The notes beneath the pieces were generated by a model that did no database searches, had not been told where the DNA came from, and saw only the letters and a program-made list of their open reading frames with translations. Position numbers and translations under genes: made by a program. 10,459 nt of DNA from Escherichia coli (GTDB taxonomy: Bacteria; Pseudomonadota; Gammaproteobacteria; Enterobacterales; Enterobacteriaceae), in the NCBI RefSeq assembly GCF_003334765.1, contig NZ_QOWT01000058.1. One strand, written 5' to 3'. Shown piece by piece: positions 1 through 10,459 of this stretch. Each line of letters opens with the position of its first letter. Within the stretch, counting starts at the first letter, position 1.

Positions 1-1016
1 ACCGAGAAAGACACTGAAGTTCAAAACACCGAAAGAGATAATTGAAAGGGGTGTTGCATTGACAGATTGAATCTACAACAGCGTATTTTGCACAGGAGTC
101 GCTGAAAAATACGCGTTAATCGAACAATGGCGACAACAATTTCCCATTGAAGCGATGTGTCAGGTATTTGGTGTATCCAGGAGCGGTTATTACAACTGGG
201 TACAGCATGAACCCTCAGACAGAAAACAAAGTGATGAGCGGCTAAAACTGGAGATTAAGGTGGCACATATCCGCACTCGCGAAACATATGGAACCCGGCG
301 GCTCCAGACGGAGCTGGCAGAGAATGGCATCATCGTTGGTCGTGACCGACTGGCACGTCTTCGTAAGGAGCTAAGGCTACGCTGTAAGCAGAAACGCAAG
401 TTCAGAGCGACTACGAACTCGAACCACAATCTGCCAGTTGCGCCAAATCTGCTGAACCAGACGTTCGCTCCTACAGCACCAAATCAGGTCTGGGTGGCGG
501 ACCTGACGTATGTTGCCACACAGGAGGGATGGTTGTACCTCGCTGGCATCAAAGATGTTTATACGTGCGAAATTGTCGGCTACGCCATGGGAGAGCGCAT
601 GACAAAAGAGCTGACAGGTAAAGCCCTGTTTATGGCGCTCAGGAGCCAGCGCCCACCTGCCGGGCTAATCCACCACTCTGATCGAGGTTCACAGTACTGC
701 GCATACGATTACCGGGTCATACAGGAGCAGTTTGGTCTGAAAACATCAATGTCGCGTAAAGGTAACTGTTACGACAACGCTCCGATGGAAAGCTTCTGGG
801 GAACGCTGAAAAATGAGAGCCTGAGCCACTATCGTTTTAATAACCGGGATGAAGCCATCTCAGTAATACGGGAATACATTGAGATTTTCTACAATCGTCA
901 GCGTCGTCACTCTCGTCTGGGGAATATCTCCCCGGCAGCCTTCAGGGAAAAATATCATCAGATGGCTGCTTAAAAAAAGAACAAATGGTAGTGTCCGCTA
1001 TTGCCAGTACACCTCA
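1..1016 (+). mobile_element. IS3-family insertion sequence (possibly IS600-like), 3' ~1 kb; left end lies outside the window
   Basis: OrfB frame is open from 71 and contains the 272-aa ORF 155..973. An OrfA-like C-terminal tail (QIESTTAYFAQESLKNTR, 63..119) sits in the frame that is -1-shifted relative to OrfB, the usual IS3-family arrangement. The proposed right end CCAGTACACCTCA (1004..1016) ends in CA; its reverse complement TGAGGTGTACTGGCAATAGCGGACAC resembles IS3-type terminal repeats as I recall them. The right boundary is an estimate. Confidence 0.7.
155..973 (+). CDS. IS3-family transposase OrfB (DDE integrase-core domain)
   Basis: 272-aa ORF with typical IS3 OrfB features: N-terminal VSRSGYY motif, WLYLA...D, HSDRGSQY and CYDNAPMESFWGTLK motifs. 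In IS3 elements this frame is normally expressed as an OrfAB fusion by -1 frameshifting; the frame is open upstream to 71. The specific IS name is from memory only. Confidence 0.9.
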   Translation: MCQVFGVSRSGYYNWVQHEPSDRKQSDERLKLEIKVAHIRTRETYGTRRLQTELAENGIIVGRDRLARLRKELRLRCKQKRKFRATTNSNHNLPVAPNLLNQTFAPTAPNQVWVADLTYVATQEGWLYLAGIKDVYTCEIVGYAMGERMTKELTGKALFMALRSQRPPAGLIHHSDRGSQYCAYDYRVIQEQFGLKTSMSRKGNCYDNAPMESFWGTLKNESLSHYRFNNRDEAISVIREYIEIFYNRQRRHSRLGNISPAAFREKYHQMAA

Positions 1017-1447
1017 CGCTTCCAGTCTTCGCGGTCGTTGTCGATAACTTCTTTTTTTGCCCAGCGATGGATGCTGCCGTCAATGTTTCCGGCATCCACA
1101 TCACTAGGCCAGAGAGCGTAGGCCAGTTCGTCATCCAGTGTTTTCCATGTCTGCTTGTATTCGCGATGAATGGCAGCAATGACCGGGCTGATTTTTCCTG
1201 TTGAATTTTCAGTGTACTGTTGATTGGCTCTGGCGCGGGCGAGATCAACAACAGACGTGTATTTTCCGGTTTCCTTGCGTTCACCTTCGCGACGTTTTTT
1301 CCAGATGCGCATCTCTGCCTGAATTTCGGGCCATTTAGCACCAGGAATACATTTATGCTTAACCCACCCAATGGCGTGCAACTTAAGCTCCGGATACGGG
1401 TTATTCCCCTCTGAACAGGCGCGTAAGGACTGGCAAAACGCCCGCAA
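998..1447 (-). CDS. hypothetical protein (phage-like), 3' end runs into the IS3-family element
   Basis: 149-codon ORF with protein-like composition, but the first codon is TTG and the first ATG is 46 codons in. The last 5 codons plus stop (998..1016) lie inside the proposed IS terminal sequence, so the native C-terminus may have been replaced by the insertion. A second minus-strand frame (970..1464) has low-complexity translation and is considered spurious. Confidence 0.3.
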   Translation of the reverse strand: MRAFCQSLRACSEGNNPYPELKLHAIGWVKHKCIPGAKWPEIQAEMRIWKKRREGERKETGKYTSVVDLARARANQQYTENSTGKISPVIAAIHREYKQTWKTLDDELAYALWPSDVDAGNIDGSIHRWAKKEVIDNDREDWKREVYWQ

Positions 1448-1466
1448 AAAACTCTCGAGGGCAAAG

Positions 1467-1637
1467 GTGAAGAAACCTGCTGTGGTTGATCCGGACCTTA
1501 TCTGGTCATCACCTGACGGAGAAATACGTCGCTACGACAGTCGCCTAAACATAATCTGTCGCGAGTGCCGGAAGAGCGAAGTTATGCAGCGCATACTGGC
1601 TTTCTATCAGGGTAATTTTCAGGACGTGGCGCAGTGA
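1467..1637 (+). CDS. small hypothetical ORF, translationally coupled (GTGA overlap) to the downstream methyltransferase-like gene
   Basis: The track ORF starts at 1371, but that would overlap the divergent minus-strand ORF. GTG at 1467 is preceded by GAGGG (1457..1461). Its stop TGA (1635..1637) overlaps the GTG start at 1634 of the next ORF. No recognised domain. Confidence 0.25.
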   Translation: MKKPAVVDPDLIWSSPDGEIRRYDSRLNIICRECRKSEVMQRILAFYQGNFQDVAQ

Positions 1638-2080
1638 GTGCACCGGCAACCATTCTTGATATGTGCTGTGGCAGCCGCATGTTCTGGTTCGATAAGTCTG
1701 ACGAACGGGCGATATTCAGCGATATCAGAAAAGAAGGATACACATTACGCAATGGGAGACGCTTGATTATCAGCCCTGACATTATCGCAGATTTTCGTGC
1801 ATTATCATTTGCAGACGCATCTTTTTCGATGGTTGTATTAGACCCTCCGCATCTTGAGAGTGTTGGTGATAACGCCTGGATGGGAAAGAAATATGGACGG
1901 CTGAATAAAGATGCCTGGCGTGATGATTCGCGACAGAGATTTAAAGAAGCCTTTCGGGTGTTGAGGCCGCACGGCGTTCTGATTTTTTAATGGAATGAAA
2001 CGCAAATACCGGTAAGCCAGATTCTGGCACTGACAGACAGAAAACCTGTTATCTGTCAACGAACAGGGAAAAAACGATAA
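1634..2080 (+). pseudogene. SAM-dependent (DNA) methyltransferase-like gene interrupted by an in-frame TAA at 1988..1990
   Basis: Translation contains a motif-I-like DMCCGSR and a motif-IV-like VVLDPPH (DPPY/NPPY class), then LRPHGVLIF before the TAA. The same frame stays open for 29 more codons (WNETQIPVSQILALTDRKPVICQRTGKKR) to TAA 2078..2080. Assignment to the N6-adenine/N4-cytosine methyltransferase class is by motif only. Confidence 0.45.
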
Positions 2081-2252
2081 AACCCACTGGATTATTTTTA
2101 TGAAAGAGGCATCCAGTGAGTAGATTCGTAAGGCTACAGATACGTATATCTGAATAATTAAATTCAGTTCTGTAAATAAAATTTAATCCTTAACCGGATG
2201 GATTTCTGCACCCTCAGAACATCAGGAGGCCGCCCGAAAGGGCGGTAGTGAA

Positions 2253-2363
2253 ATGCGAAAGTTCAAAATTATTATTGAAACGGGAATAGCTGGTGGAGAT
2301 TTTGAGGATGTATTCGAAGTGGACGATGACGCAACACCTGAGGAAATTCATGACGGAGCATAA
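2253..2363 (+). CDS. small acidic hypothetical ORF (36 aa)
   Basis: ATG 2253 to TAA 2361..2363, translation MRKFKIIIETGIAGGDFEDVFEVDDDATPEEIHDGA. AGGAGG lies at 2224..2229, separated from the ATG by a GAAA-capped hairpin (2229..2246). Below the ORF-track length cutoff and unverified. Confidence 0.2.
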   Translation: MRKFKIIIETGIAGGDFEDVFEVDDDATPEEIHDGA

Positions 2364-2412
2364 GAAATTTTCTTTAACTACTGCAATTACTCATACCACG
2401 AAATAAAAGACG

Positions 2413-2604
2413 ATGAGGAAGAACAAAGTGGCTGATTTTTGTTCAGCTAAATATAACATCAGTTTTGAAGAGCGGGATGAACTATTAATGGACTATGGTG
2501 AGTTACGCGGTGGAAGTGCTGCTGATGTCGAATCCTAGCGTGATGACTATGAAGCGGGAAAAACTCCGGTCGAAGCATATTGTGATGAGTGGGGCGATGA
2601 ATGA
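2413..2604 (+). pseudogene. short ORF interrupted by in-frame TAG (2536..2538); probable decayed prophage gene
   Basis: ATG 2413, 41 codons, TAG, then 21 more open codons to TGA 2602..2604. The alternative frame is also open, which fits decayed coding DNA. Confidence 0.2.
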
Positions 2605-2888
2605 GCGAGATTAATTATCAGGAAGGGCATGAAACGGCGGGGCAAGCAAAACCAGTGGCATGGCGATATCGCTACGTGAAAAAAGGCGTTACGGACTTTC
2701 AGGGGAAGTAGTGGTCTGGTGACTGGAAATATGTACCGAAAAAAGAGGATTGTAACGACAGGCCGAACTATCAAATTCAGGCCTTATTCACTGCCTCACC
2801 AGTCCCAGTTACATCAGAAGAACTGGTTAAAGCTGTGCACTTTTATGAACAACTAAAACGCGAAAATCCACCAACATCCGGCAACTAG
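2601..2888 (+). pseudogene. short ORF interrupted by in-frame TAG (2709..2711); probable decayed prophage gene
   Basis: ATG 2601 overlaps the upstream stop (ATGA). 36 codons, TAG, then 58 further open codons (WSGDWKYVPKKEDCNDRPNYQIQALFTASPVPVTSEELVKAVHFYEQLKRENPPTSGN) to TAG 2886..2888. Confidence 0.25.
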
Positions 2889-3142
2889 ATTAATGGATTA
2901 ACTATGTCGGTTAAACGACCAGCCAACTGAAAAAGCGGAAACCTGATTACAGGTTGCCAGATAAGGCAATGAGCTACCTGGCGCGGAACGGACTGATAAG
3001 TATGGGGAATGTTTTACGATGAACCTTTAGACTAAAGAGTTTGTAACGCTATGTAAGTGATTTTTTCTGGTTTAGATATTTATATGTCCGGCCAAATTGA
3101 GGTGTGTTTAAATGTAATTGCACATTGATTGTAGGAGGAATA

Positions 3143-3322
3143 ATGAAAAACGCATTGCAGTTTTTGTTTGTTGCGTTCTGGTTGTTCGCATCATGTATGC
3201 CCATCATCTTCACAGCAAGGTATATGGAAAAAGTTGATGTTTTGATATTAATATTTGGATATATAAATGCCCTTTTTTTAGGGGTGTTCATGGCGGTCAT
3301 GTGCATTGAATACTGGCGGTAA
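3143..3322 (+). CDS. small predicted membrane protein (59 aa, two hydrophobic helices) in an AT-rich islet
   Basis: Strong Shine-Dalgarno AGGAGG (3133..3138) 4 nt before ATG 3143. Translation MKNALQFLFVAFWLFASCMPIIFTARYMEKVDVLILIFGYINALFLGVFMAVMCIEYWR has two hydrophobic segments. Local GC content is low. The track lists a longer 3104 start with no ribosome-binding site. Confidence 0.4.
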   Translation: MKNALQFLFVAFWLFASCMPIIFTARYMEKVDVLILIFGYINALFLGVFMAVMCIEYWR

Positions 3323-3508
3323 ATACAGCGAACTCCATTGGTTTAGTTGGATATTTACTGTGCTGGACAAAAACGGTTTGCGGGGAAATCTTAGTTAAGT
3401 AGAATGACTGCGGGTGCTTGAGGCTATCTGCCTCGGGCATGGACACCAACGGCAGATAGAGAAAAGCCCCAGTTAACATTACGCGTCCTGCAAGACGCTT
3501 AACATTAA

Positions 3509-3590
3509 TCTGAGGCCAATTTCATGCTAGACACATGTAGGTTAGCCTCTTACGTGCCGAAAGGCACGGAGAAGCAGGCTATTGTTAACA
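3509..3590 (+). other. degenerate relE-3'end/hok-leader-like segment (paralogous remnant of the hokD translation-initiation region), no intact toxin ORF
   Basis: 3568..3582 GGAGAAGCAGGCTAT is identical to the hokD ribosome-binding site and start region at 6857..6871. The upstream hairpin CGTGCC-GAAA-GGCACG (3553..3568) parallels CACC-GAA-GGTG (6824..6834) with compensatory changes. 3509..3537 weakly resembles 6794..6818. The start position reads ATT and only 6 codons follow before TAA. Confidence 0.4.
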
Positions 3591-3627
3591 CCAAGCTGTA
3601 ATGTCCCCTTTGAACCATTCTAAAATG

Positions 3628-3654
3628 TCCCCAGACAATTCTCTGGGGGATTTT
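3628..3654 (+). other. stem-loop CCCCAGA-caattc-TCTGGGG plus T-run directly upstream of the transposase start
   Basis: 7-bp perfect stem followed by GATTTTTC, ending 2 nt before ATG 3657. It is terminator-like; it may insulate the transposase gene from read-in transcription or be part of the IS end. Confidence 0.4.
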
Positions 3655-3656
3655 TC

Positions 3657-4970
3657 ATGATCAAAGAGACTGTTACGATGAGTCATAAGGAACTCCACCG
3701 ACTTCAGATTATTCAGGAACAAGCTGCGGCACGCATTGGCATTTCTATTCGGCAGGTTAAACGTCTGGTGCAACGGTATAGAAATGAAGGGCCTTCTGGT
3801 CTGGTTTCCCACCGACGTGGAAAGCGTCCTAATAATTCCTTTTCTACTGAATTCAGAGCAACAGTAATTTCACTCCTCAAAGGCCGTTACGCTGATTTTG
3901 GACCTACGTTTGCGTGCGAAAAATTGCGCGAGATACACGGTTTATCTTTATCCGTTGAAACTCTCAGAAAGTGGATGATAGAAGAGGGGTTATGGCGTGA
4001 ACGCCGTCGTAAAATTGCCCGTATATATCAACGCCGCATGCGACGACCATCTTACGGTGAACTGATCCAGATTGATGGCTCACCTCATGACTGGTTTGAA
4101 AATCGAGGCCCCAGATGTACACTGATCGTTTTCATTGATGATGCCACCAGTGCGTTGATGGCGTTGCGTTTTGTGCCTGCTGAAACAACCCGGGCTTACA
4201 TGGAAACCCTCCGGGGTTACCTTAATGATCATGGCGTACCGCTCGCTCTCTACTCTGATAGACACAGTATATTCAGGGTAAATAACCCAGAGCGGGAAGG
4301 TGAGCTGACCCAGTTCACTCGTGCGATAAAGACACTGGGCATCGAGCCAATCCATGCCAACAGCCCGCAGGCAAAAGGGCGGGTAGAGCGCGCCAATCAG
4401 ACACTACAGGACAGGCTGGTCAAAGAAATGCGGCTTCAGAATATCAGTGATATTGAAACAGCAAATGCATGGTTGCCGACCTTTATTGAAGCCTATAACA
4501 ACCGGTTCGCTACGTCGCCTCGTACTACTGATAATGCTCATCTTGATGTGCACCATTCTGAAGAGGAACTGGGTTATATCTTCAGCCTACAGGCGAAGCG
4601 CGTTCTGTCTAAAAATCTCACTTTCCAGTACAAAAGCAGTGCGTTTCAGGTACGCAGTGAGGGCCGGGGATATCGACTTAGGCATTCGGTTGTTACTGTA
4701 TGCGAGAACTTTGACGGTGAAATTAACGTTCTGTATGACGGGAAAGCGCTGGGCTGGGAAAAGTATGTTGATGGCCCGGAGCCTATACCACTGGATGATG
4801 AAAAGAGTGTCCATGAACGAGTGGATAATGCCCGTATTGATTTACGCTCAAAATACTATGTTAAACCTAAAGCTGACCATCCCTGGCTTACGCGCCGAAC
4901 GCAAAGTCATCAGCAAGTTAAGCCCCCGAAGTTACCTAAAAAGAAGCCTGATCCCGATAAAAAAGATTGA
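3657..4970 (+). CDS. DDE transposase with N-terminal helix-turn-helix and integrase-core domain (ISNCY/IS1202-group or IS481-like)
   Basis: 437-aa ORF. The N-terminus (RIGISIRQVKRLVQRYRNEG) looks like a helix-turn-helix. Candidate catalytic residues are D in IQIDGSPHDW, D in ALYSDRHSIF and E in KGRVERANQTL. The basic lysine/proline-rich C-terminus is typical of transposases. GGGGGA precedes the ATG by 7 nt. Family assignment is from memory. Confidence 0.85.
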   Translation: MIKETVTMSHKELHRLQIIQEQAAARIGISIRQVKRLVQRYRNEGPSGLVSHRRGKRPNNSFSTEFRATVISLLKGRYADFGPTFACEKLREIHGLSLSVETLRKWMIEEGLWRERRRKIARIYQRRMRRPSYGELIQIDGSPHDWFENRGPRCTLIVFIDDATSALMALRFVPAETTRAYMETLRGYLNDHGVPLALYSDRHSIFRVNNPEREGELTQFTRAIKTLGIEPIHANSPQAKGRVERANQTLQDRLVKEMRLQNISDIETANAWLPTFIEAYNNRFATSPRTTDNAHLDVHHSEEELGYIFSLQAKRVLSKNLTFQYKSSAFQVRSEGRGYRLRHSVVTVCENFDGEINVLYDGKALGWEKYVDGPEPIPLDDEKSVHERVDNARIDLRSKYYVKPKADHPWLTRRTQSHQQVKPPKLPKKKPDPDKKD

Positions 4971-5366
4971 AACCAAGATCGATTCGGTTGAGTGCATATC
5001 CATTCATAGGGTAGATTCTTAAGTCGCGTTTCTGGTGTTCATTTTCGGGTGGTTTGTTACTTGTTTTACCGGGGATATGCCAGAAACGCGCTGAGTCAGT
5101 CTGGGCGGTGCGCGTAATGAGGCGTTATGGTAAATAGCCTATGCTAATGTCCGCTAAGAGCAAGAAGCGGAAGTTGGCAGTTTTGTGGACTGTCCCCACA
5201 AAAGTGACTACAGAAATAGTTGCAATTCATAATTGATCATGGGTTGTCAGTTAAACTCGTGGCGATTTAAATAGACTAATTGGGAGTGCGTCCATTACTT
5301 ATATCTTGTAATGTTAACTATCAGAAATGATACAAAGATAATATGTCTTTAAAGAAAAGGCTGATG

Positions 5367-5392
5367 GCGAAAAGTGGCCCGATGAGGGCCAC
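5367..5392 (-). terminator. rho-independent terminator of flxA
   Basis: Hairpin GTGGCCC-gatga-GGGCCAC (5374..5392). On the minus strand it is followed by TTTTCGCC, 14 nt downstream of the flxA stop. Confidence 0.5.
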
Positions 5393-5406
5393 AATACGGC
5401 TGTCAC

Positions 5407-5739
5407 TTAGACGTAAATATCAATGGTGCCAGCGGTATTTGTATCGTCTTTTTTCTCTTCTTTTTTATCAGGCTGAACTGTCGCGTCTTCATTCTTTTTC
5501 TCTGCCTGCTGCCTTAACAACTGCTCCAGTTGAGCCCAGAGGCTTTCAATTTGCTTCTGTACCAATGCAGCCATTTCTTTTTTCTGCTGTGTCGTCATCC
5601 CCTCTTCCGATGAGATTTTCCCAAGCTTTTCAGTCAGCACCTGAATTTGTCTTGTGATTTTGGCTATTTCTGATGTTCCTTCCGGGGCGGAGTTGTTTGA
5701 AATAACGGTTGAGGTATTTCCCTGAATTGTGACAGACAT
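5407..5739 (-). CDS. flxA: FlxA (FliA-regulated prophage protein)
   Basis: 110-aa ORF (MSVTIQGNTSTVISNNSAPEG...QQKKEMAALVQKQIESLWAQLEQLL...) recognised from memory as E. coli FlxA. GGAG lies 7 nt upstream of the ATG on the minus strand, and a sigma-28 promoter lies just upstream. Confidence 0.85.
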   Translation of the reverse strand: MSVTIQGNTSTVISNNSAPEGTSEIAKITRQIQVLTEKLGKISSEEGMTTQQKKEMAALVQKQIESLWAQLEQLLRQQAEKKNEDATVQPDKKEEKKDDTNTAGTIDIYV

Positions 5740-5762
5740 AGATTTCTCCTTTTAAAAAAGCA

Positions 5763-5789
5763 CTATCGGCATGCACAAAAAAATCTTTA
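5763..5789 (-). promoter_or_regulatory. sigma-28 (FliA) promoter for flxA
   Basis: Minus strand reads TAAAGATT-N11-GCCGATAG against the class-3 flagellar consensus TAAAGTTT-N11-GCCGATAA (14/16). The -10 element ends about 24 nt upstream of the flxA ATG. Confidence 0.6.
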
Positions 5790-5941
5790 ATCGTATTTCT
5801 TGTGTCATTAATTGTTTGATGTTCAGATTGTTTTCCTCGCGGGCTGGCGCGCCTCAGAAAGTAAAGCTTGTTGACAGGGGTAAACGTTCGGCAATAATTT
5901 TCTGCCGCATGCGGGTGTTGCATAAAACGTGTTACGTTCCT

Positions 5942-6247
5942 TTATCGACAGGTCAGGTCACCGCTCACCCGCCGACGAGAAAGCAACACTGACATGCTAA
6001 AGCAAAAAATAGATGAATAAGTTGAGTTGTGCATATGTAGCCTGACCGTCACAAAGTATATGGTGTCTGTACCAGTAAGATGATGGCCGGACTCTTTAAA
6101 AACGAGCTGACCTGCACAATACAGGATGGACTTAGCAATGGCTGCTCCTGGCACAAAGCGGACAGTGATCACCGTTCTTACGACTACTTTCTGACTTCCT
6201 TCGTGACTTGCCCTAAGCATGTTGTAGTGCGATACTTGTAATGACAT
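5942..6247 (-). CDS. ydfV: YdfV-like hypothetical ORF (doubtful coding status)
   Basis: 101-codon ORF at the position where K-12 annotates ydfV, as I recall. Its ATG (6245..6247) lies inside the relBE operator repeats and the translation is S/T/C-rich and poorly protein-like, so it is kept at low confidence. Confidence 0.4.
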   Translation of the reverse strand: MSLQVSHYNMLRASHEGSQKVVVRTVITVRFVPGAAIAKSILYCAGQLVFKESGHHLTGTDTIYFVTVRLHMHNSTYSSIFCFSMSVLLSRRRVSGDLTCR

Positions 6248-6259
6248 TTGTAATTACAA
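6208..6259 (+). promoter_or_regulatory. relBE promoter and operator (relO)
   Basis: -35 TTGCCC (6208..6213), 17-nt spacer, -10 GATACT (6231..6236). TTGTAAT repeats at 6236..6242 and 6248..6254, and the palindrome TTGTAATTACAA (6248..6259), lie between the promoter and the relB ATG at 6272. This is the classic RelB-RelE autoregulation site. Confidence 0.65.
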
Positions 6260-6271
6260 GAGGTGTAAGAC

Positions 6272-6511
6272 ATGGGTAGCATTAACCTGCGTATTGACGA
6301 TGAACTTAAAGCGCGTTCTTACGCCGCGCTTGAAAAAATGGGTGTAACTCCTTCTGAAGCGCTTCGTCTCATGCTCGAGTATATCGCTGACAATGAACGC
6401 TTGCCGTTCAAACAGACACTCCTGAGTGATGAAGATGCTGAACTTGTGGAGATAGTGAAAGAACGGCTTCGTAATCCTAAGCCAGTACGTGTGACGCTGG
6501 ATGAACTCTGA
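6272..6511 (+). CDS. relB: RelB antitoxin
   Basis: 79-aa ORF MGSINLRIDDELKARSYAALEKMGVTPSEALRLMLEYIADNERLPFKQTLLSDEDAELVEIVKERLRNPKPVRVTLDEL, near-identical to E. coli RelB from memory. Its stop overlaps the relE start (TGATG). Confidence 0.93.
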   Translation: MGSINLRIDDELKARSYAALEKMGVTPSEALRLMLEYIADNERLPFKQTLLSDEDAELVEIVKERLRNPKPVRVTLDEL

Positions 6512-6798
6512 TGGCGTATTTTCTGGATTTTGACGAGCGGGCACTAAAGGAATGGCGAAAGCTGGGCTCGACGGTACGTGAACAGTTGAAAAAGAAGCTG
6601 GTTGAAGTACTTGAGTCACCCCGGATTGAAGCAAACAAGCTCCGTGGTATGCCTGATTGTTACAAGATTAAGCTCCGGTCTTCAGGCTATCGCCTTGTAT
6701 ACCAGGTTATAGACGAGAAAGTTGTCGTTTTCGTGATTTCTGTTGGGAAAAGAGAACGCTCGGAAGTATATAGCGAGGCGGTCAAACGCATTCTCTGA
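6511..6798 (+). CDS. relE: RelE mRNA interferase toxin
   Basis: 95-aa ORF MAYFLDFDERALKEWRKLGSTVREQLKKKLVEVLESPRIEANKLRGMPDCYKIKLRSSGYRLVYQVIDEKVVVFVISVGKRERSEVYSEAVKRIL, recognised as RelE. It is translationally coupled to relB. Confidence 0.93.
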   Translation: MAYFLDFDERALKEWRKLGSTVREQLKKKLVEVLESPRIEANKLRGMPDCYKIKLRSSGYRLVYQVIDEKVVVFVISVGKRERSEVYSEAVKRIL

Positions 6799-6869
6799 AC
6801 CAAAGCATGACATCTCTGTTTCGCACCGAAGGTGACACTTCTGCTTTGCGTTGACAGGAGAAGCAGGCT

Positions 6870-7025
6870 ATGAAGCAGCAAAAGGCGATGTTAATCGCCC
6901 TGATCGTCATCTGTTTAACCGTCATAGTGACGGCACTGGTAACGAGGAAAGACCTCTGCGAGGTACGAATCCGAACCGGCCAGACGGAGGTCGCTGTCTT
7001 CACAGCTTACGAACCTGAGGAGTAA
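6870..7025 (+). CDS. hokD: HokD (RelF) Hok-family type I membrane toxin
   Basis: 51-aa ORF MKQQKAMLIALIVICLTVIVTALVTRKDLCEVRIRTGQTEVAVFTAYEPEE, not in the ORF track because it is short. It has a ribosome-binding site GGAG at 6857..6860. The Hok family signature is a transmembrane helix followed by LCE. Confidence 0.9.
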   Translation: MKQQKAMLIALIVICLTVIVTALVTRKDLCEVRIRTGQTEVAVFTAYEPEE

Positions 7026-7083
7026 GAGACCCGGCGGGGGAGAAATCCCTCGCCACCTCTGATGTGGCAGGCATCCTCAACGC

Positions 7084-7115
7084 ACCCGCACTTAACCCGC
7101 TTCGGCGGGTTTTTG
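7084..7115 (+). terminator. rho-independent terminator after the relB-relE-hokD operon
   Basis: Hairpin CCCGC-ttcg-GCGGG (7086..7099) followed by TTTTTGTTTTTATTTT (7100..7115). Confidence 0.6.
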
Positions 7116-7241
7116 TTTTTATTTTCAACGCGTTTGAAGTTCTGGACGGTGCCGGAATAGAATCAAAAATACTTAAGTAGCGCGCAGGGATAAGAGGGAT
7201 GGTCCCTTAAAGGGGAGAGCTAATTATCCGGAAGGATTCTG

Positions 7242-7493
7242 ATGATGAACATCGAAGAACTGCGTAAAATTTTTTGTGAAGATGGCCTCTATGCTGTGTG
7301 CGTTGAAAATGGAAATCTTGTTAGTCATTACCGCATTATGTGTTTGCGAAAGAATGGGGCTGCGTTAATTAATTTTGTGGATGCTCGGGTCACGGACGGA
7401 TTTATCTTGCGCGAAGGTGAGTTTGTCACTTCATTACAGGCATTGAAAGAGATCGGAATAAAAGCTGGCTTTTCTGCTTTTTCAGGAGAATAA
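7242..7493 (+). CDS. rem: Rem-like prophage protein
   Basis: 83-aa ORF MMNIEELRKIFCEDGLYAVCVENGNLVSHYRIMCLRKNGAALINFVDARVTDGFILREGEF..., matching Qin prophage Rem by memory and by its position between hokD and ydfU. Confidence 0.8.
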   Translation: MMNIEELRKIFCEDGLYAVCVENGNLVSHYRIMCLRKNGAALINFVDARVTDGFILREGEFVTSLQALKEIGIKAGFSAFSGE

Positions 7494-7559
7494 ACTCATC
7501 TACAATCTTGCGCGGGGCTGAACTCCCGCTGAGTAACACCGTGCCACCGGAGAAAACCG

Positions 7560-7838
7560 ATGGCACGCAACGCAAAATATTACAATTCTGATAATTCGCC
7601 CGTTCTTGCCTGCACGCACGGGCGGTATTCTCACGCATTCAAGTCTGAATGGTTCCAGCACCCTCCATGCACTGCAGAACAGGCCGAATGGCTGATTCAT
7701 TCTTACCGCAGGCGCGGGTTCGAGGTTAAGAAAGCTCTCAGTCTCGACTATCGGCACTGGATAATCTCTGTCAGGCTGCCTTATTCCGAACGCCCACCAC
7801 GTGCGTCCCGCACTTTCCAGCAACGGATCTGGAGGTAA
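7560..7838 (+). CDS. hypothetical prophage protein (92 aa), tightly coupled to ydfU
   Basis: GGAG sits 7 nt upstream of the ATG. Its stop at 7836..7838 is followed 1 nt later by the ydfU GTG start, whose ribosome-binding site GGAGG (7831..7835) lies inside this ORF. No recognised domain. Confidence 0.45.
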   Translation: MARNAKYYNSDNSPVLACTHGRYSHAFKSEWFQHPPCTAEQAEWLIHSYRRRGFEVKKALSLDYRHWIISVRLPYSERPPRASRTFQQRIWR

Positions 7839-7839
7839 C

Positions 7840-8889
7840 GTGCGGGTATTACTTAGACCTGTTCTGGTGCCTGAGCTTGGGCTGGTGGTCCTTAAGCCGG
7901 GCCGTGAATCCATACAGATATTTCATAATCCTCGAGTGCTGGTGGAACCGGAACCAAAAAGCATGCGTAATCTGCCATCCGGAGTCGTTCCTGCCGTTCG
8001 CCAGCCGCTGGCGGAAGACAAAACATTGCTGCCGTTTTTTAGTAACGAACGGGTGATTCGTGCTGCTGGCGGCGTTGGCGCATTGTCCGACTGGCTATTA
8101 CGTCATGTTACATCCTGCCAGTGGCCTAATGGCGATTACCATCACACTGAAACAGTCATTCACCGTTATGGTACCGGCGCAATGGTGTTGTGCTGGCACT
8201 GCGACAACCAACTGCGTGACCAGACATCGGAATCACTGGAGCTGCTTGCTCAACAAAATCTGACAGCATGGGTGATTGACGTCATCCGTCACGCAATAAG
8301 CGGTACGCAGGAGCGGGAATTATCTTTGGCTGAATTATCCTGGTGGGCGGTCTGCAATCAGGTGGTGGATGCACTACCTGAGGCTGTATCGCGTCGTTCG
8401 CTGGGATTACCAGCGGAAAAAATCTGCTCGGTGTACCGCGAAAGCGACATCGTACCGGGAGAGCAGACCGCCACCAGCATATTGAAACAACGCACAAAAA
8501 ATCTTGCACCGTTGCCTTACGCCCACCAGCAACAAAAATCACCACAGGAAAAGACGGTGGTAAGCATCACCGTTGATCCAGAGTCTCCGGAATCTTTCAT
8601 GAAGCTGCCTAAACGTCGCCGCTGGGTTAAGGAGAAATACACACGTTGGGTTAAGACACAGCCGTGTGCTTGCTGCGGTATGCCAGCCGACGATCCGCAT
8701 CATCTGATTGGTCACGGGCAGGGCGGAATGGGAACAAAAGCACATGATCTCTTTGTGTTGCCTTTGTGCAGAAAGCATCACAACGAGCTGCATACGGATA
8801 CAGTGGCATTTGAAGATAAGTATGGCTCCCAACTGGAGCTGATATTTCGTTTTATCGATCGCGCGCTGGCAATTGGCGTACTGGCGTAA
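7840..8889 (+). CDS. ydfU: YdfU-like DUF968 protein (HNH-like C-terminal motif)
   Basis: The track ORF 7801..8889 is trimmed to GTG 7840, which is preceded by GGAGG, giving 349 aa. The C-terminus CACCGMPADDPHHLIGHGQGGMGTKAHDLFVLPLCRKHHNELH has a Cys/His pattern like HNH/zinc-binding nucleases. Identity is from memory. Confidence 0.8.
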   Translation: MRVLLRPVLVPELGLVVLKPGRESIQIFHNPRVLVEPEPKSMRNLPSGVVPAVRQPLAEDKTLLPFFSNERVIRAAGGVGALSDWLLRHVTSCQWPNGDYHHTETVIHRYGTGAMVLCWHCDNQLRDQTSESLELLAQQNLTAWVIDVIRHAISGTQERELSLAELSWWAVCNQVVDALPEAVSRRSLGLPAEKICSVYRESDIVPGEQTATSILKQRTKNLAPLPYAHQQQKSPQEKTVVSITVDPESPESFMKLPKRRRWVKEKYTRWVKTQPCACCGMPADDPHHLIGHGQGGMGTKAHDLFVLPLCRKHHNELHTDTVAFEDKYGSQLELIFRFIDRALAIGVLA

Positions 8890-8902
8890 GTGGAGAACGA
8901 GC

Positions 8903-9655
8903 ATGAACCTTGAAGCCTTACCAAAATATTACTCCCCAAAATCTCCAAAATTGAGCGATGACGCTCCAGCGACAGGCACCGGTTGTTTAACAATTACGGA
9001 TGTAATGGCAGCGCAGGGGATGGTGCAGTCGAAAGCACCACTTGGGTTGGCCTTATTTCTGGCAAAAGTTGGTGTTCAGGACCCTCAGTTTGCGATTGAA
9101 GGCCTGCTAAATTACGCGATGGCACTGGATAACCCGACATTGAACAAATTGAGTGAAGAAATCCGGTTACAGATTATTCCTTACCTCGTGAGTTTTGCCT
9201 TTGCTGATTACTCCAGGTCTGCGGCAAGTAAGGCTCGCTGTGAGCATTGTTCAGGTACGGGATTTTATAATGTATTGCGCGAAGTGGTGAAACACTACAG
9301 ACGCGGGGAATCTGTAATCAAGGAAGAATGGGTGAAGGAACTATGTCAGCATTGCCATGGTAAGGGCGAAGCCAGCACAGCGTGCAGAGGGTGTAAGGGT
9401 AAAGGGATTGTTCTGGATGAAAAAAGAACCCGGTTTCATGGCGTACCGGTATATAAGATTTGTGGGCGTTGTAATGGAAACCGGTTTAGTCGTTTACCGA
9501 CCACGCTGGCACGACGTCATGTCCAGAAGCTGGTACCAGACCTGACCGATTATCAGTGGTATAAGGGGTATGCGGACGTCATTGGTAAACTGGTAACAAA
9601 GTGCTGGCAGGAAGAAGCATACGCGGAAGCGCAATTGAGGAAGGTGACGAGATAA
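8903..9655 (+). CDS. quuQ: Q-family late-gene antiterminator (QuuQ-like)
   Basis: 250 aa from ATG 8903, which has GGAG 6 nt upstream; the track ORF starts 10 codons earlier. Contains several CxxC pairs (CEHCSGTG, CQHCHGKG, CRGCKGKG, CGRCNGN) and is followed by a promoter-terminator pair arranged like lambdoid P_R'-tR'. Confidence 0.85.
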   Translation: MNLEALPKYYSPKSPKLSDDAPATGTGCLTITDVMAAQGMVQSKAPLGLALFLAKVGVQDPQFAIEGLLNYAMALDNPTLNKLSEEIRLQIIPYLVSFAFADYSRSAASKARCEHCSGTGFYNVLREVVKHYRRGESVIKEEWVKELCQHCHGKGEASTACRGCKGKGIVLDEKRTRFHGVPVYKICGRCNGNRFSRLPTTLARRHVQKLVPDLTDYQWYKGYADVIGKLVTKCWQEEAYAEAQLRKVTR

Positions 9656-9686
9656 ATGATTTTTGCTGAAGATGGCGACATGATGT

Positions 9687-9715
9687 TTGCATTTTTCAAA
9701 AAATATGGATAAAAT
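9687..9715 (+). promoter_or_regulatory. putative late promoter (P_R'-like sigma-70 promoter) downstream of quuQ
   Basis: -35 TTGCAT (9687..9692), 17-nt spacer, -10 TAAAAT (9710..9715), beginning 32 nt after the quuQ stop. Confidence 0.5.
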
Positions 9716-9760
9716 TTTTTCAACGATGGGCTTTGTATACCCGACGTTAAGAAAAAGTAG

Positions 9761-9790
9761 AAAACCCGCTGATGAGCGGGTTTTGTGCTT
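9761..9790 (+). terminator. rho-independent terminator (tR'-like, possibly bidirectional)
   Basis: Hairpin CCCGCT-gatg-AGCGGG (9765..9780) followed by TTTTGTGCTTT. An A-run precedes it, so it could also act on the minus strand. It lies about 50-60 nt downstream of the predicted start of the putative late promoter. Confidence 0.55.
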
Positions 9791-10076
9791 TAAATGGGGC
9801 AATGGTAATGTTGAATCTCATCCCGGGACTCATGTCTGTTAACTTATTATTTAGCTGGTGACTTGGTTATTTGCCTGATGTTTAAAATGTTTTCTTCCAG
9901 TACAATGTCCCTAAACACAATGAGTCTGCTTATTATATTATTAGCAGAGCTATTACGGCCAAAGTACAGCATAAGCTTTTAAAGCCAATCAACCAGTCAT
10001 CAAGACAGACGGGGTTATTCATAAAAACTCTCCATGTGTGATCCGATGGGGCCTGAAATTAAAGCTTTAATATAGC

Positions 10077-10289
10077 TCATGAAAGGTAAACATTGGCAGC
10101 TGAAGGGCCACGCAGACCATTTATCCGGCAAAATTCCACGCGTAATCCGGTGGTAATTTCTTCTGCATCGCGGAGATTGAGCGCTGAAACATGAAGCTGG
10201 ACATCGATACGACCATCGGATGGGGTGATAAGACCCTTGCCGCTTTTGCCGTCAAAGGTTTTGACAATTCCTGTCATTTTACGGGACAA
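10077..10289 (-). CDS. cspF: cold-shock-domain protein, CspF/CspH family
   Basis: 70-aa [73 protein letters not shown] with CspA-family motifs. It is convergent with quuQ. The first codon is TTG, with AAGGA 6 nt upstream. Confidence 0.8.
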
Positions 10290-10459
10290 AAAAATTCCTT
10301 AATACTGATAACTTGGCGCACTATACACACGTTCCTGAAGAAAGCTATAGTTTTTTGATGGGGTTGAAGATGGCTGGATGTCTAAGGAAGGTGCGAATAA
10401 GCGGGGAAATACTTCTCGGCTGACTCAGTCATTTCATTTCTTCATGTTTGAGCCGATTT

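What the first reader, a model, noticed from the sequence alone, without database searches (positions are those of the whole stretch)
6200..6275. relBE operator overlaps the predicted ydfV start; ydfV coding status is doubtful
Only 24 nt separate the ydfV ATG from the relB ATG, and the ydfV start codon lies inside the TTGTAAT operator repeats. The ydfV translation has atypical composition. Either ydfV is a mis-called ORF over the long relB upstream region, or RelB-RelE binding directly occludes its start.
Basis: partly seen in the sequence, partly recalled or inferred. Interest (0 to 1): 0.3.

Follow-up and report, generated by a model that had tools for sequence, protein, structure and literature searches.

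The report
ydfV: chance ORF over relBE operator
The stretch is the well-studied promoter and operator of the relBE toxin-antitoxin genes, and the "ydfV gene" that starts inside it is almost certainly a chance open reading frame, not a protein-coding gene, so the finding is ordinary but corrects an annotation.

Summary
The ydfV ATG (6247-6245, minus strand) lies 24 nt from the relB ATG (6272). It is the first three bases of one of the four published RelB hexads [A/T]TGT[A/C]A of relO (6236-6259).

The doubt about ydfV coding is strongly supported:
- In 37 relBE loci from other genera the antisense ORF ranges from 0 to 94 aa. Only E. coli-derived DNA gives 101 aa.
- 7 of 16 alignable loci carry +1 or +2 indels in the ydfV frame.
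- Variable sites show no codon-position bias in the ydfV frame (18/24/20), against 13/8/51 in relB.
- All protein hits are near-identical mosaics that share only the N- or the C-terminal part.
- There is no Pfam, NCBIfam or PHROG match, no Shine-Dalgarno sequence, and codon usage looks like shuffled sequence.

The ORF crosses a module junction at about 6139. Only about 110 nt of it travels with relBE.

Side finding: window 3583-6856 is an ISEsa1-like (IS1202-family) transposon carrying flxA, "ydfV" and relBE. It sits in the hokD leader with a 15-bp target duplication, and 3,828 E. coli genomes have the empty site. Minus-strand transcription is reported in the literature, so a non-coding regulatory role remains possible.

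The parts
6208..6213 (+). Predicted -35 hexamer of the relBE promoter (TTGCCC).
   Evidence: My scan gives TTGCCC-17-GATACT, 8/12 matches. A TTGC motif at the same spacing recurs in diverged relBE loci. This is a prediction, not a mapped promoter.
6231..6236 (+). Predicted -10 hexamer (GATACT). It implies a relB transcription start near 6243-6246.
   Evidence: It agrees with the published statement that relO spans -10 to +17 relative to the start site (PMC2812701).
6236..6259 (.). relO, the RelB2-RelE operator. Four hexads: 6236-6241 (+), 6242-6247 (-), 6248-6253 (+) and 6254-6259 (-).
   Evidence: Matches the published hexad [A/T]TGT[A/C]A and the half-site architecture. It is the best-conserved upstream segment across 30 relBE loci.
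6260..6265 (+). Shine-Dalgarno sequence of relB (GAGGTG), 6 nt before the ATG.
   Evidence: Read directly from the sequence.
6272..6511 (+). relB antitoxin gene.
   Evidence: NCBIfam NF008412, 133 bits. Strong third-position bias, 13/8/51 variable columns.
6511..6798 (+). relE toxin gene.
   Evidence: TIGR02385.
5942..6247 (-). Annotated ydfV ORF (101 aa). Judged a chance ORF, not a protein-coding gene.
6139..6163 (.). Left edge of the relBE module. A hairpin-like IS-end sequence: TCCGCTTCTGGCACAAAGCGGA in other genomes, degenerate in this window. The ydfV ORF crosses it at codons 29-37.
   Evidence: Similarity to relBE loci in at least 12 genera and to 779 plasmid records stops at 6129-6151. 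A related hairpin lies at the IS right end, 5150-5172.
3583..6856 (+). ISEsa1-like (IS1202-family) transposon of 3,274 bp. It comprises the left inverted repeat, the transposase gene (3657-4970), flxA, the ydfV ORF, relBE and the right inverted repeat.
   Evidence: Ends are TGTTAACACCAAGC... and ...GCTTTGCGTTGACA, about 22/30 matches by my own alignment of the two ends printed; the outermost 14 bp match 11/14. Transposase is NF033594 ISNCY, 456 bits. RefSeq names plasmid copies IS1202-like ISEsa1. The empty site is contiguous in 3,828 genomes.
3568..3582 (.). Left copy of the 15-bp target-site duplication GGAGAAGCAGGCTAT.
6857..6871 (.). Right copy of the 15-bp target-site duplication. It contains the hokD Shine-Dalgarno sequence and the first two bases (AT) of the hokD ATG.
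5407..5739 (-). flxA, a cargo gene with its own FliA-type promoter seen by eye at 5763-5789.
   Evidence: PHROG 11044. K-12 annotation.
6870..7025 (+). hokD, cut off from its own leader by the insertion.
   Evidence: PHROG 251..
3412..3583 (+). Orphaned hokD leader/sok region, the other side of the insertion.
   Evidence: Rfam RF01794 sok, 104 bits.

Best explanation
Window 6200-6275 is the promoter, operator and ribosome-binding region of relBE. RelB2 and RelB2-RelE bind four hexads (6236-6259) that overlap the -10 element and the transcription start, and so repress relBE.

The ydfV reading frame on the opposite strand is a chance ORF. Its ATG is the [A]TG of one RelB hexad. Its first four codons are the left operator half-site. 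Codons 5-13 run back through the promoter (the predicted -35 ends at 6208), and codons 14-36 through the rest of the relBE module. At about codon 36 the ORF crosses the left edge of the mobile relBE module into unrelated DNA (the flxA cargo segment of an ISEsa1-like transposon).

No protein is under selection there. The apparent conservation of the N-terminus (MSLQ...) is conservation of the operator and promoter.

Steps shown: the anatomy, the lack of ORF conservation, the lack of coding signatures, and the junction. Steps inferred: the exact transcription start, and the absence of translation in vivo.
For: **Operator anatomy.** It matches the published relO.

**ORF length in other relBE loci.** In 37 relBE loci from other genera the antisense ORF starting at the homologous position is 17-94 aa or absent. 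The ATG is replaced by ACG, TTG or ATT in about 15 loci, in part matching the [A/T] degeneracy of the hexad. Only K-12 and one identical E. coli-like contig give 101 aa.

**Frame and substitution pattern.** 7 of 16 alignable loci have net +1 or +2 indels in the ydfV frame inside otherwise 86-97% identical sequence. Variable columns by ydfV codon position are 18/24/20 (p=0.64), against 13/8/51 (p=1e-10) in relB from the same alignment. Divergence of 6150-6207 is similar to relB third positions, which suggests near-neutral change, while relO stays 96-100% identical in most loci.

**Protein hits.**
- All 31 relatives among 5.8 billion proteins are at least 70% identical mosaics.
- The first 33 residues are joined to at least 8 unrelated C-termini, and the C-terminal part to at least 5 unrelated N-termini.
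- 779 plasmid records share only window 6129/6149-6280.
- An exhaustive phmmer search of 1.84 billion representatives found only those fragments plus repeat-protein noise.

**Family and sequence signals.** No Pfam, NCBIfam or PHROG family matches, whereas flxA, hokD and rem each match one. Codon-usage z is 0.47, against 2.7-4.8 for neighbouring genes and 1.2 for the obviously spurious 126-aa ORF antisense to relB. The 20 nt before the ATG are CACCTCTTGTAATTACAA, the complement of the relB Shine-Dalgarno region, with no SD of their own.

**Natural disruptions.** IS1, IS5 and IS21 insertions and frameshift variants occur within the ORF in natural strains.

**Expression and genetics.** One transcriptome-plus-proteome study saw the transcript rise but no protein. 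The phenotype of ydfV::Tn10 was attributed by its authors to reduced RelB expression. The 2025 paper adds that it was reversed by relB, not ydfV, overexpression.
Against: - The ORF is intact in more than 1,100 complete E. coli genomes. That region is at least 99% identical in nearly all of them, so this says nothing about selection.
- For the C-terminal two thirds (5942-6135) I found a single substitution among nine loci, so no dN/dS-type test was possible there.
- A 101-codon ORF is somewhat long for chance. However, four other non-genic ORFs of 104-191 aa lie within 3 kb.
- Minus-strand RNA over ydfV is detected and regulated.
- I had no ribosome-profiling data.
Confidence: 0.85

Rival explanations
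1. The minus-strand transcript over ydfV is functional as RNA. Transcription that starts inside relB and runs leftward through relO collides with, or pairs against, relBE transcription (a divergent 'excludon'). The ORF is then irrelevant but the transcription unit is regulatory. This is compatible with ydfV being non-coding.
For: ExcludonFinder reports relBE down and ydfV up under four antibiotics and proposes this model (PMC12288877). The transcript is induced under microaerobic growth and lost after MNNG treatment. RNA polymerase holoenzyme binds the relB-ydfV spacer in genomic SELEX.
Against: - The pair is not in that paper's core set of 16 divergent excludons.
- No good sigma-70 promoter faces leftward. 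The best is 8/12, inside relB near 6378-6407.
- Nothing upstream of the relBE -35 is conserved beyond neutral expectation in other relBE loci.
- Inverse expression could equally come from changes in relBE autoregulation.
- The Tn10 and point-mutation phenotypes are explained by damage to the relBE promoter itself.
Confidence: 0.25
2. ydfV is a young, lineage-specific protein-coding gene born in E. coli when the relBE module was joined to the flxA segment, and it is translated into a small functional protein.
For: The ORF is intact and annotated in about 1,160 complete E. coli genomes and in an intact phage, PhiR42_1. The RNA is present.
Against: It shows no coding signature of any kind. It has no Shine-Dalgarno sequence. 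It is frequently disrupted in natural strains. No protein was detected in one proteome study. Overexpressing ydfV did not reverse the Tn10 phenotype.
Confidence: 0.07
3. RelB2-RelE binding directly occludes the ydfV start codon and so controls its translation.
For: The start codon lies inside the operator.
Against: RelB is a ribbon-helix-helix protein that reads double-stranded DNA (PMC2812701). No RNA binding is known for it. The overlap is a DNA-level coincidence. The only conceivable effect is a transcriptional roadblock, which is covered by the first rival.
Confidence: 0.02

Closest known systems
relO, the operator of the E. coli relBE toxin-antitoxin operon (Overgaard et al. 2009, PMC2812701)
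   Same: It is this element. It has four hexads [A/T]TGT[A/C]A arranged as a pseudo-palindromic and a perfect palindromic 12-bp half-site with no spacing, overlapping the -10 element and the start site.
   Different: Nothing differs. The only addition is that the annotated ydfV ATG is part of one hexad.
Spurious ('shadow' or orphan) ORFs kept from early genome annotations
   Same: Species-restricted, no homologues, no SD, random-like codon usage, and overlap with regulatory DNA.
   Different: This one is still named 'protein YdfV' in RefSeq and is listed as uncharacterised in the y-ome. A 2025 paper treats it as a functional partner of relBE.
Divergent excludons (overlapping 5' transcripts of neighbouring divergent genes)
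   Same: Divergent arrangement, a 24-nt gap, and reported inverse RNA levels.
   Different: One partner is probably not a gene. No leftward promoter has been identified, and the pair is not in the core excludon set.
IS1202-family insertion sequences and transporter IS (ISEsa1, tISKpn21; Hall and co-workers, PMC10132070)
   Same: A 437-aa transposase with N-terminal HTH regions, 5'-TGT...ACA-3' ends, imperfect terminal repeats, an unusually long target duplication, and passenger genes between the transposase gene and the right end.
   Different: ISEsa1 was listed there as having no detectable duplication and no target. Here a 15-bp duplication is seen, and insertion is at the same point of two different hok loci. 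relBE is the constant right-end passenger.

Membership tests
relO operator of relBE | Four hexads [A/T]TGT[A/C]A, two on each strand. | tested here: met
   TTGTAA at 6236 (+), ATGTCA at 6247 (-), TTGTAA at 6248 (+) and TTGTAA at 6259 (-). Definition taken from PMC2812701.
relO operator of relBE | Two abutting 12-bp half-sites, one pseudo-palindromic and one perfectly palindromic. | tested here: met
   TTGTAATGACAT (6236-6247) followed directly by TTGTAATTACAA (6248-6259).
relO operator of relBE | Spans about -10 to +17 of the relBE promoter. | tested here: inconclusive
   The predicted -10 GATACT at 6231-6236 fits, but the transcription start was not mapped here.
relO operator of relBE | Bound by RelB2 and RelB2-RelE. 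| not testable with these tools
   Published footprints are described for the E. coli relBE operator; the paper's text, as held here, does not print the sequence.
Protein-coding gene (ydfV) | Reading frame preserved in orthologous DNA. | tested here: not met
   ORF of 0-94 aa in 35 non-E. coli loci. Net +1 or +2 indels in 7 of 16 alignable loci.
Protein-coding gene (ydfV) | Excess of third-codon-position change (purifying selection). | tested here: not met
   18/24/20 variable columns for 6150-6235, against 13/8/51 in relB. For 5942-6135 the test is inconclusive, with only one substitution seen.
Protein-coding gene (ydfV) | Ribosome-binding site and host-like codon usage. | tested here: not met
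   No purine-rich stretch upstream of the ATG. Codon score z = 0.47 (the codon table was entered from memory).
Protein-coding gene (ydfV) | Homologues or membership of a protein family. | tested here: not met
Protein-coding gene (ydfV) | Evidence of translation. | not testable with these tools
   Only one proteome study was found, and the protein was not detected.
Divergent excludon | Overlapping divergent transcripts with reciprocal expression. | not testable with these tools
   Reported from RNA-seq in PMC12288877, but the pair is absent from its core list.
IS1202-family (ISEsa1-like) transposon | Family transposase. | tested here: met
   NF033594, 456 bits against a cut-off of 250. RefSeq name on 99.7% identical plasmid copies.
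IS1202-family (ISEsa1-like) transposon | 5'-TGT...ACA-3' ends with imperfect terminal inverted repeats. | tested here: met
   TGTTAACACCAAGC... at 3583 and ...GCTTTGCGTTGACA at 6856.
IS1202-family (ISEsa1-like) transposon | Target-site duplication and an empty site. | tested here: met
   A 15-bp repeat flanks the element. The joined flanks are contiguous in 3,828 genomes. A second element has its own 15-bp repeat in another hok locus.
IS1202-family (ISEsa1-like) transposon | Transposition activity. | not testable with these tools
   Would need a mating-out or papillation assay.

The most novel reading that the evidence does not exclude
The model relBE toxin-antitoxin module of E. coli is the constant right-end passenger of a family of ISEsa1-type (IS1202-family) transposons. 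These insert, with a 15-bp duplication, precisely at the Shine-Dalgarno/start-codon region of hok toxin genes. The insertion silences the hok locus's own control region and creates the 'relBEF' operon. 'ydfV' is an ORF artefact across the junction between the relBE module and variable middle cargo (flxA here, cytochrome b and a CDF transporter on an IncHI2 plasmid).
Probability: 0.7. Interest if true: 0.5.

Novelty: already known. Interest (0 to 1): 0.25.

Why it matters
ydfV is still annotated as 'protein YdfV' and counted among uncharacterised E. coli proteins. A 2025 paper calls it a functional component of the relBE system. If it is not a gene, several results need re-reading:
- ydfV::Tn10 and point mutations 'in ydfV' should be read as relBE promoter/operator mutations.
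- 'ydfV expression' in RNA-seq should be read as antisense or read-through RNA.
- The entry should leave the y-ome list.

The transposon context explains why similarity to other relBE loci stops inside the ORF. It also explains how relBE came to sit in front of hokD.

Tried and rejected
- **dN/dS on the whole ORF.** Not possible. The C-terminal two thirds are nearly invariant in all available copies, and distant searches of the phage collection found one identical record.
- **Rfam.** No known RNA lies under ydfV or the relB leader.
- **Promoter and terminator scan.** No terminator, and no leftward promoter at 9/12 or better. My lenient scan gave only an 8/12 site inside relB.
- **sigma-54 reading of TGGCAC at 6149.** Rejected by eye, because the GC of the -12 element is mis-spaced.
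- **Integron attC or dif-like reading of the module ends.** Rejected. The sequences do not match the core sites, and the ends match an IS1202-family element instead.
- **First idea that the plus-strand promoter at 5871-5898 was the lost hokD promoter.** Rejected, because the real hok leader lies at 3412-3583.
- **Large T9SS repeat proteins hit by phmmer (E down to 3e-14).** Rejected as relatives:
  - The score is the sum of 6-17 weak repeat matches.
  - The best single match is 32 bits, which is not significant at database scale.
  - The matched YdfV segment spans the module junction.
- **Literature.** A 'b1565' search returned only unrelated papers. Tamura et al. 2012 is not held. The supplements of the excludon paper are not held.

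Full report
**What is there.**
From 4786 to 10385 the window is 99.98% identical to the reverse complement of the E. coli K-12 Qin prophage. In that stretch, window position w corresponds to NC_000913.3 position 1,652,144 - w.

| Feature | Window coordinates | Strand |
|---|---|---|
| flxA | 5407-5739 | - |
| ydfV | 5942-6247 | - |
| relB | 6272-6511 | + |
| relE | 6511-6798 | + |
| hokD | 6870-7025 | + |
| rem | 7242-7493 | + |

**The observation.**
The ydfV ATG is at 6247-6245 on the minus strand and the relB ATG is at 6272, so 24 nt lie between them. TTGTAAT occurs at 6236 (+), 6248 (+) and 6253-6259 (-).

Overgaard et al. describe relO as follows (PMC2812701):
- It has four hexads [A/T]TGT[A/C]A.
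- These form a pseudo-palindromic and a perfectly palindromic 12-bp half-site with no spacing.
- It spans about -10 to +17 of the promoter.

The window matches exactly. TTGTAATGACAT (6236-6247) is followed by TTGTAATTACAA (6248-6259). The ydfV ATG is therefore the first three bases of the bottom-strand hexad ATGTCA, and codons 1-4 (MSLQ) are the left half-site.

A promoter TTGCCC-17-GATACT (6208-6236) fits this picture and puts the relB start near 6243-6246. That is a prediction, not a mapped start.

**Is ydfV a gene? Comparative test on the relBE side.**
A scan of one genome per species gave 37 relBE loci, with RelB 37-100% identical.
- The operator is the best-conserved upstream segment.
- The antisense ORF beginning at the homologous ATG is 17-94 aa or absent. 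Only K-12 and one identical E. coli-like contig reach 101 aa.
- The ATG itself becomes ACG, TTG or ATT in about 15 loci.

In an alignment of 16 loci that still share the upstream block, the results were:

| Measure | ydfV frame (6150-6235) | relB CDS |
|---|---|---|
| Variable columns at codon positions 1/2/3 | 18/24/20 | 13/8/51 |
| Chi-square p | 0.64 | 1e-10 |
| Loci with net +1 or +2 indel | 7 of 16 | not counted |

The block 6150-6207 diverges about as fast as relB third positions. This is the signature of non-coding DNA next to a conserved operator.

**The ORF is a mosaic.**
- Of 779 plasmid records that carry this relB upstream region, all but 18 stop resembling the window at 6129-6149.
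- Conversely, strain a7 and others keep 5147-6163 without relBE.
- All 31 protein hits among 5.8 billion sequences are at least 70% identical. They share either residues 1-33 (joined to at least 8 unrelated tails) or the C-terminal part (joined to at least 5 unrelated heads). Many of the altered heads are created by IS5 or IS21 insertions; an IS1 also lies inside the region in one genome.
- An exhaustive phmmer search of 1.84 billion representatives found only these fragments. It also hit six giant T9SS repeat proteins whose scores are sums of weak repeat matches.
- No Pfam, NCBIfam or PHROG family matches, although flxA, hokD and rem each match a PHROG.

**Intrinsic signals.**

| ORF | Codon-usage z vs shuffles |
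|---|---|
| ydfV | 0.47 |
| relB | 4.8 |
| flxA | 4.1 |
| rem | 3.1 |
| relE | 2.7 |
| 126-aa ORF antisense to relB (spurious) | 1.2 |

- The codon table for this score was entered from memory.
- GC by codon position is flat for ydfV.
- Acidic residues make up 4% of the predicted protein.
- The 20 nt before the ATG are the complement of the relB Shine-Dalgarno region and contain no SD of their own.

**Limits.**
The C-terminal two thirds are almost invariant in all copies I could obtain, so no substitution test was possible there. The intact ORF in about 1,160 genomes reflects that near-identity rather than selection. I had no ribosome-profiling data.

**Literature.**
- Minus-strand RNA is real. 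It is induced by four antibiotics while relBE falls (PMC12288877) and under microaerobiosis, where no protein was detected. It is lost after MNNG treatment.
- The 2025 paper calls relBE-ydfV an excludon and ydfV a functional component of the toxin-antitoxin system. However, the pair is not in its core list.
- By that paper's own account, the Tn10 phenotype was reversed by relB, not ydfV.
- A non-coding regulatory role of leftward transcription therefore remains possible, at about 0.25, and does not conflict with the main conclusion.
- RelB binds DNA, so 'occlusion of the start codon' is not a meaningful mechanism.

**Why similarity stops inside the ORF: the transposon context.**
- Rfam finds a complete hok leader/sok element at 3412-3583 that ends in GGAGAAGCAGGCTAT. 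The same 15 bp precede the final G of the hokD ATG, at 6857-6871.
- Joining 3342-3582 to 6872-7130 gives a sequence that is contiguous, in a single piece at 98.8-99.2% identity, in 3,828 of 5,426 complete E. coli genomes.
- The 3,274 bp in between begin TGTTAACACCAAGC and end GCTTTGCGTTGACA, about 22/30 inverted-repeat matches with TGT...ACA ends.
- This segment encodes a 437-aa ISNCY/IS1202-like ISEsa1 transposase.
- These features fit the IS1202 family as described in PMC10132070.
- On IncHI2 plasmid pC45_001 a 6,093-bp element with the same ends carries the transposase gene, an ISEsa2 insertion, cytochrome b and CDF-transporter genes, and relBE. It lies at the same point of a different hok locus, flanked by its own 15-bp repeat GGAGAAGAAGGCCAT.
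- A third hok variant follows the right end in a Lelliottia genome.

relBE is therefore the constant right-end passenger, and the middle cargo varies. The left edge of the relBE module (about 6139-6163) resembles the subterminal hairpin of the IS right end at 5150-5172. The ydfV ORF reads straight across it.

K-12 itself has lost the left 1.2 kb of the element. Its ydfW corresponds to the C-terminal end of the transposase gene; ydfX probably derives from the same gene, but I did not test that. That relBE integrated into hokD was already noted by Ramisetty and Santhosh 2016, as cited in PMC6379469. I did not find the transposon vehicle or its hok preference described, but my literature access is partial.

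**Verdict.**
- The operator overlap is real and already known biology.
- ydfV is very probably an annotation artefact (confidence 0.85).
- Interest in the given finding is low to modest.
- The transposon context is the more interesting by-product.

Noticed in passing
window 3583-6856, with repeats at 3568-3582 and 6857-6871: A 3,274-bp ISEsa1-like (IS1202-family) transposon carrying flxA and relBE is inserted in the hokD leader with a 15-bp target duplication. The empty site is contiguous in 3,828 E. coli genomes.
   Followed up: yes
L052 (NZ_CP042552.1, IncHI2 plasmid pC45_001), reverse-complement coordinates 717-6839: A 6,093-bp element has the same ends and relBE at its right end, but different middle cargo (cytochrome b and a CDF transporter). 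It sits at the same position of a different hok locus with its own 15-bp repeat. This suggests target preference for the hok start region.
   Followed up: partly
window 3412-3583 (+): A full-length Rfam sok / hok-leader match (104 bits) has no hok gene after it. It is the orphaned 5' half of the hokD locus, and it is absent from K-12 MG1655.
   Followed up: yes
window 5871-5898 (+): A near-consensus sigma-70-like promoter, TTGACA-16-AATAAT (11/12), points towards relB and lies antisense to the ydfV ORF. No terminator or known RNA lies downstream. Its function is unexplained.
   Followed up: no
window 5150-5172 and 6141-6163: Two related hairpin sequences (TCCGCT...AGCGGA) lie in direct orientation. 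One is at the right end of the IS proper and one at the left edge of the relBE module. They may be alternative transposon right-end sequences that allowed cargo capture.
   Followed up: partly
window 5763-5789 (-): A FliA (sigma-28)-type promoter, TAAA-N15-GCCGATAG, lies just upstream of flxA. It was seen by eye. flxA therefore does not need read-through from ydfV.
   Followed up: no
window 6131-6166, in other strains (L042, L043, L045; H1): IS21 (L042) and IS5 (L043) insertions and an unidentified ~230-nt insertion (L045) cluster within about 35 nt, at the edge of the relBE module. An IS1 also interrupts the flxA-relB region in one genome (H1; position not resolved).
   Followed up: partly
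window 4786-4970; K-12 ydfW and ydfX: K-12 'protein YdfW' corresponds to the C-terminal end of the ISEsa1-like transposase gene (tblastn residues 377-421). ydfX probably derives from the same gene; I inferred that from position only.
   Followed up: partly
window 7034-7115 (+): A sub-threshold Rfam match to isrK (25 bits against a gathering score of 50, E = 0.006) lies just downstream of hokD.
   Followed up: no
L005 (contig assigned to a Collinsella MAG): This contig is identical to the E. coli Qin region, including ydfV. It is probably a mis-binned E. coli contig.
   Followed up: no
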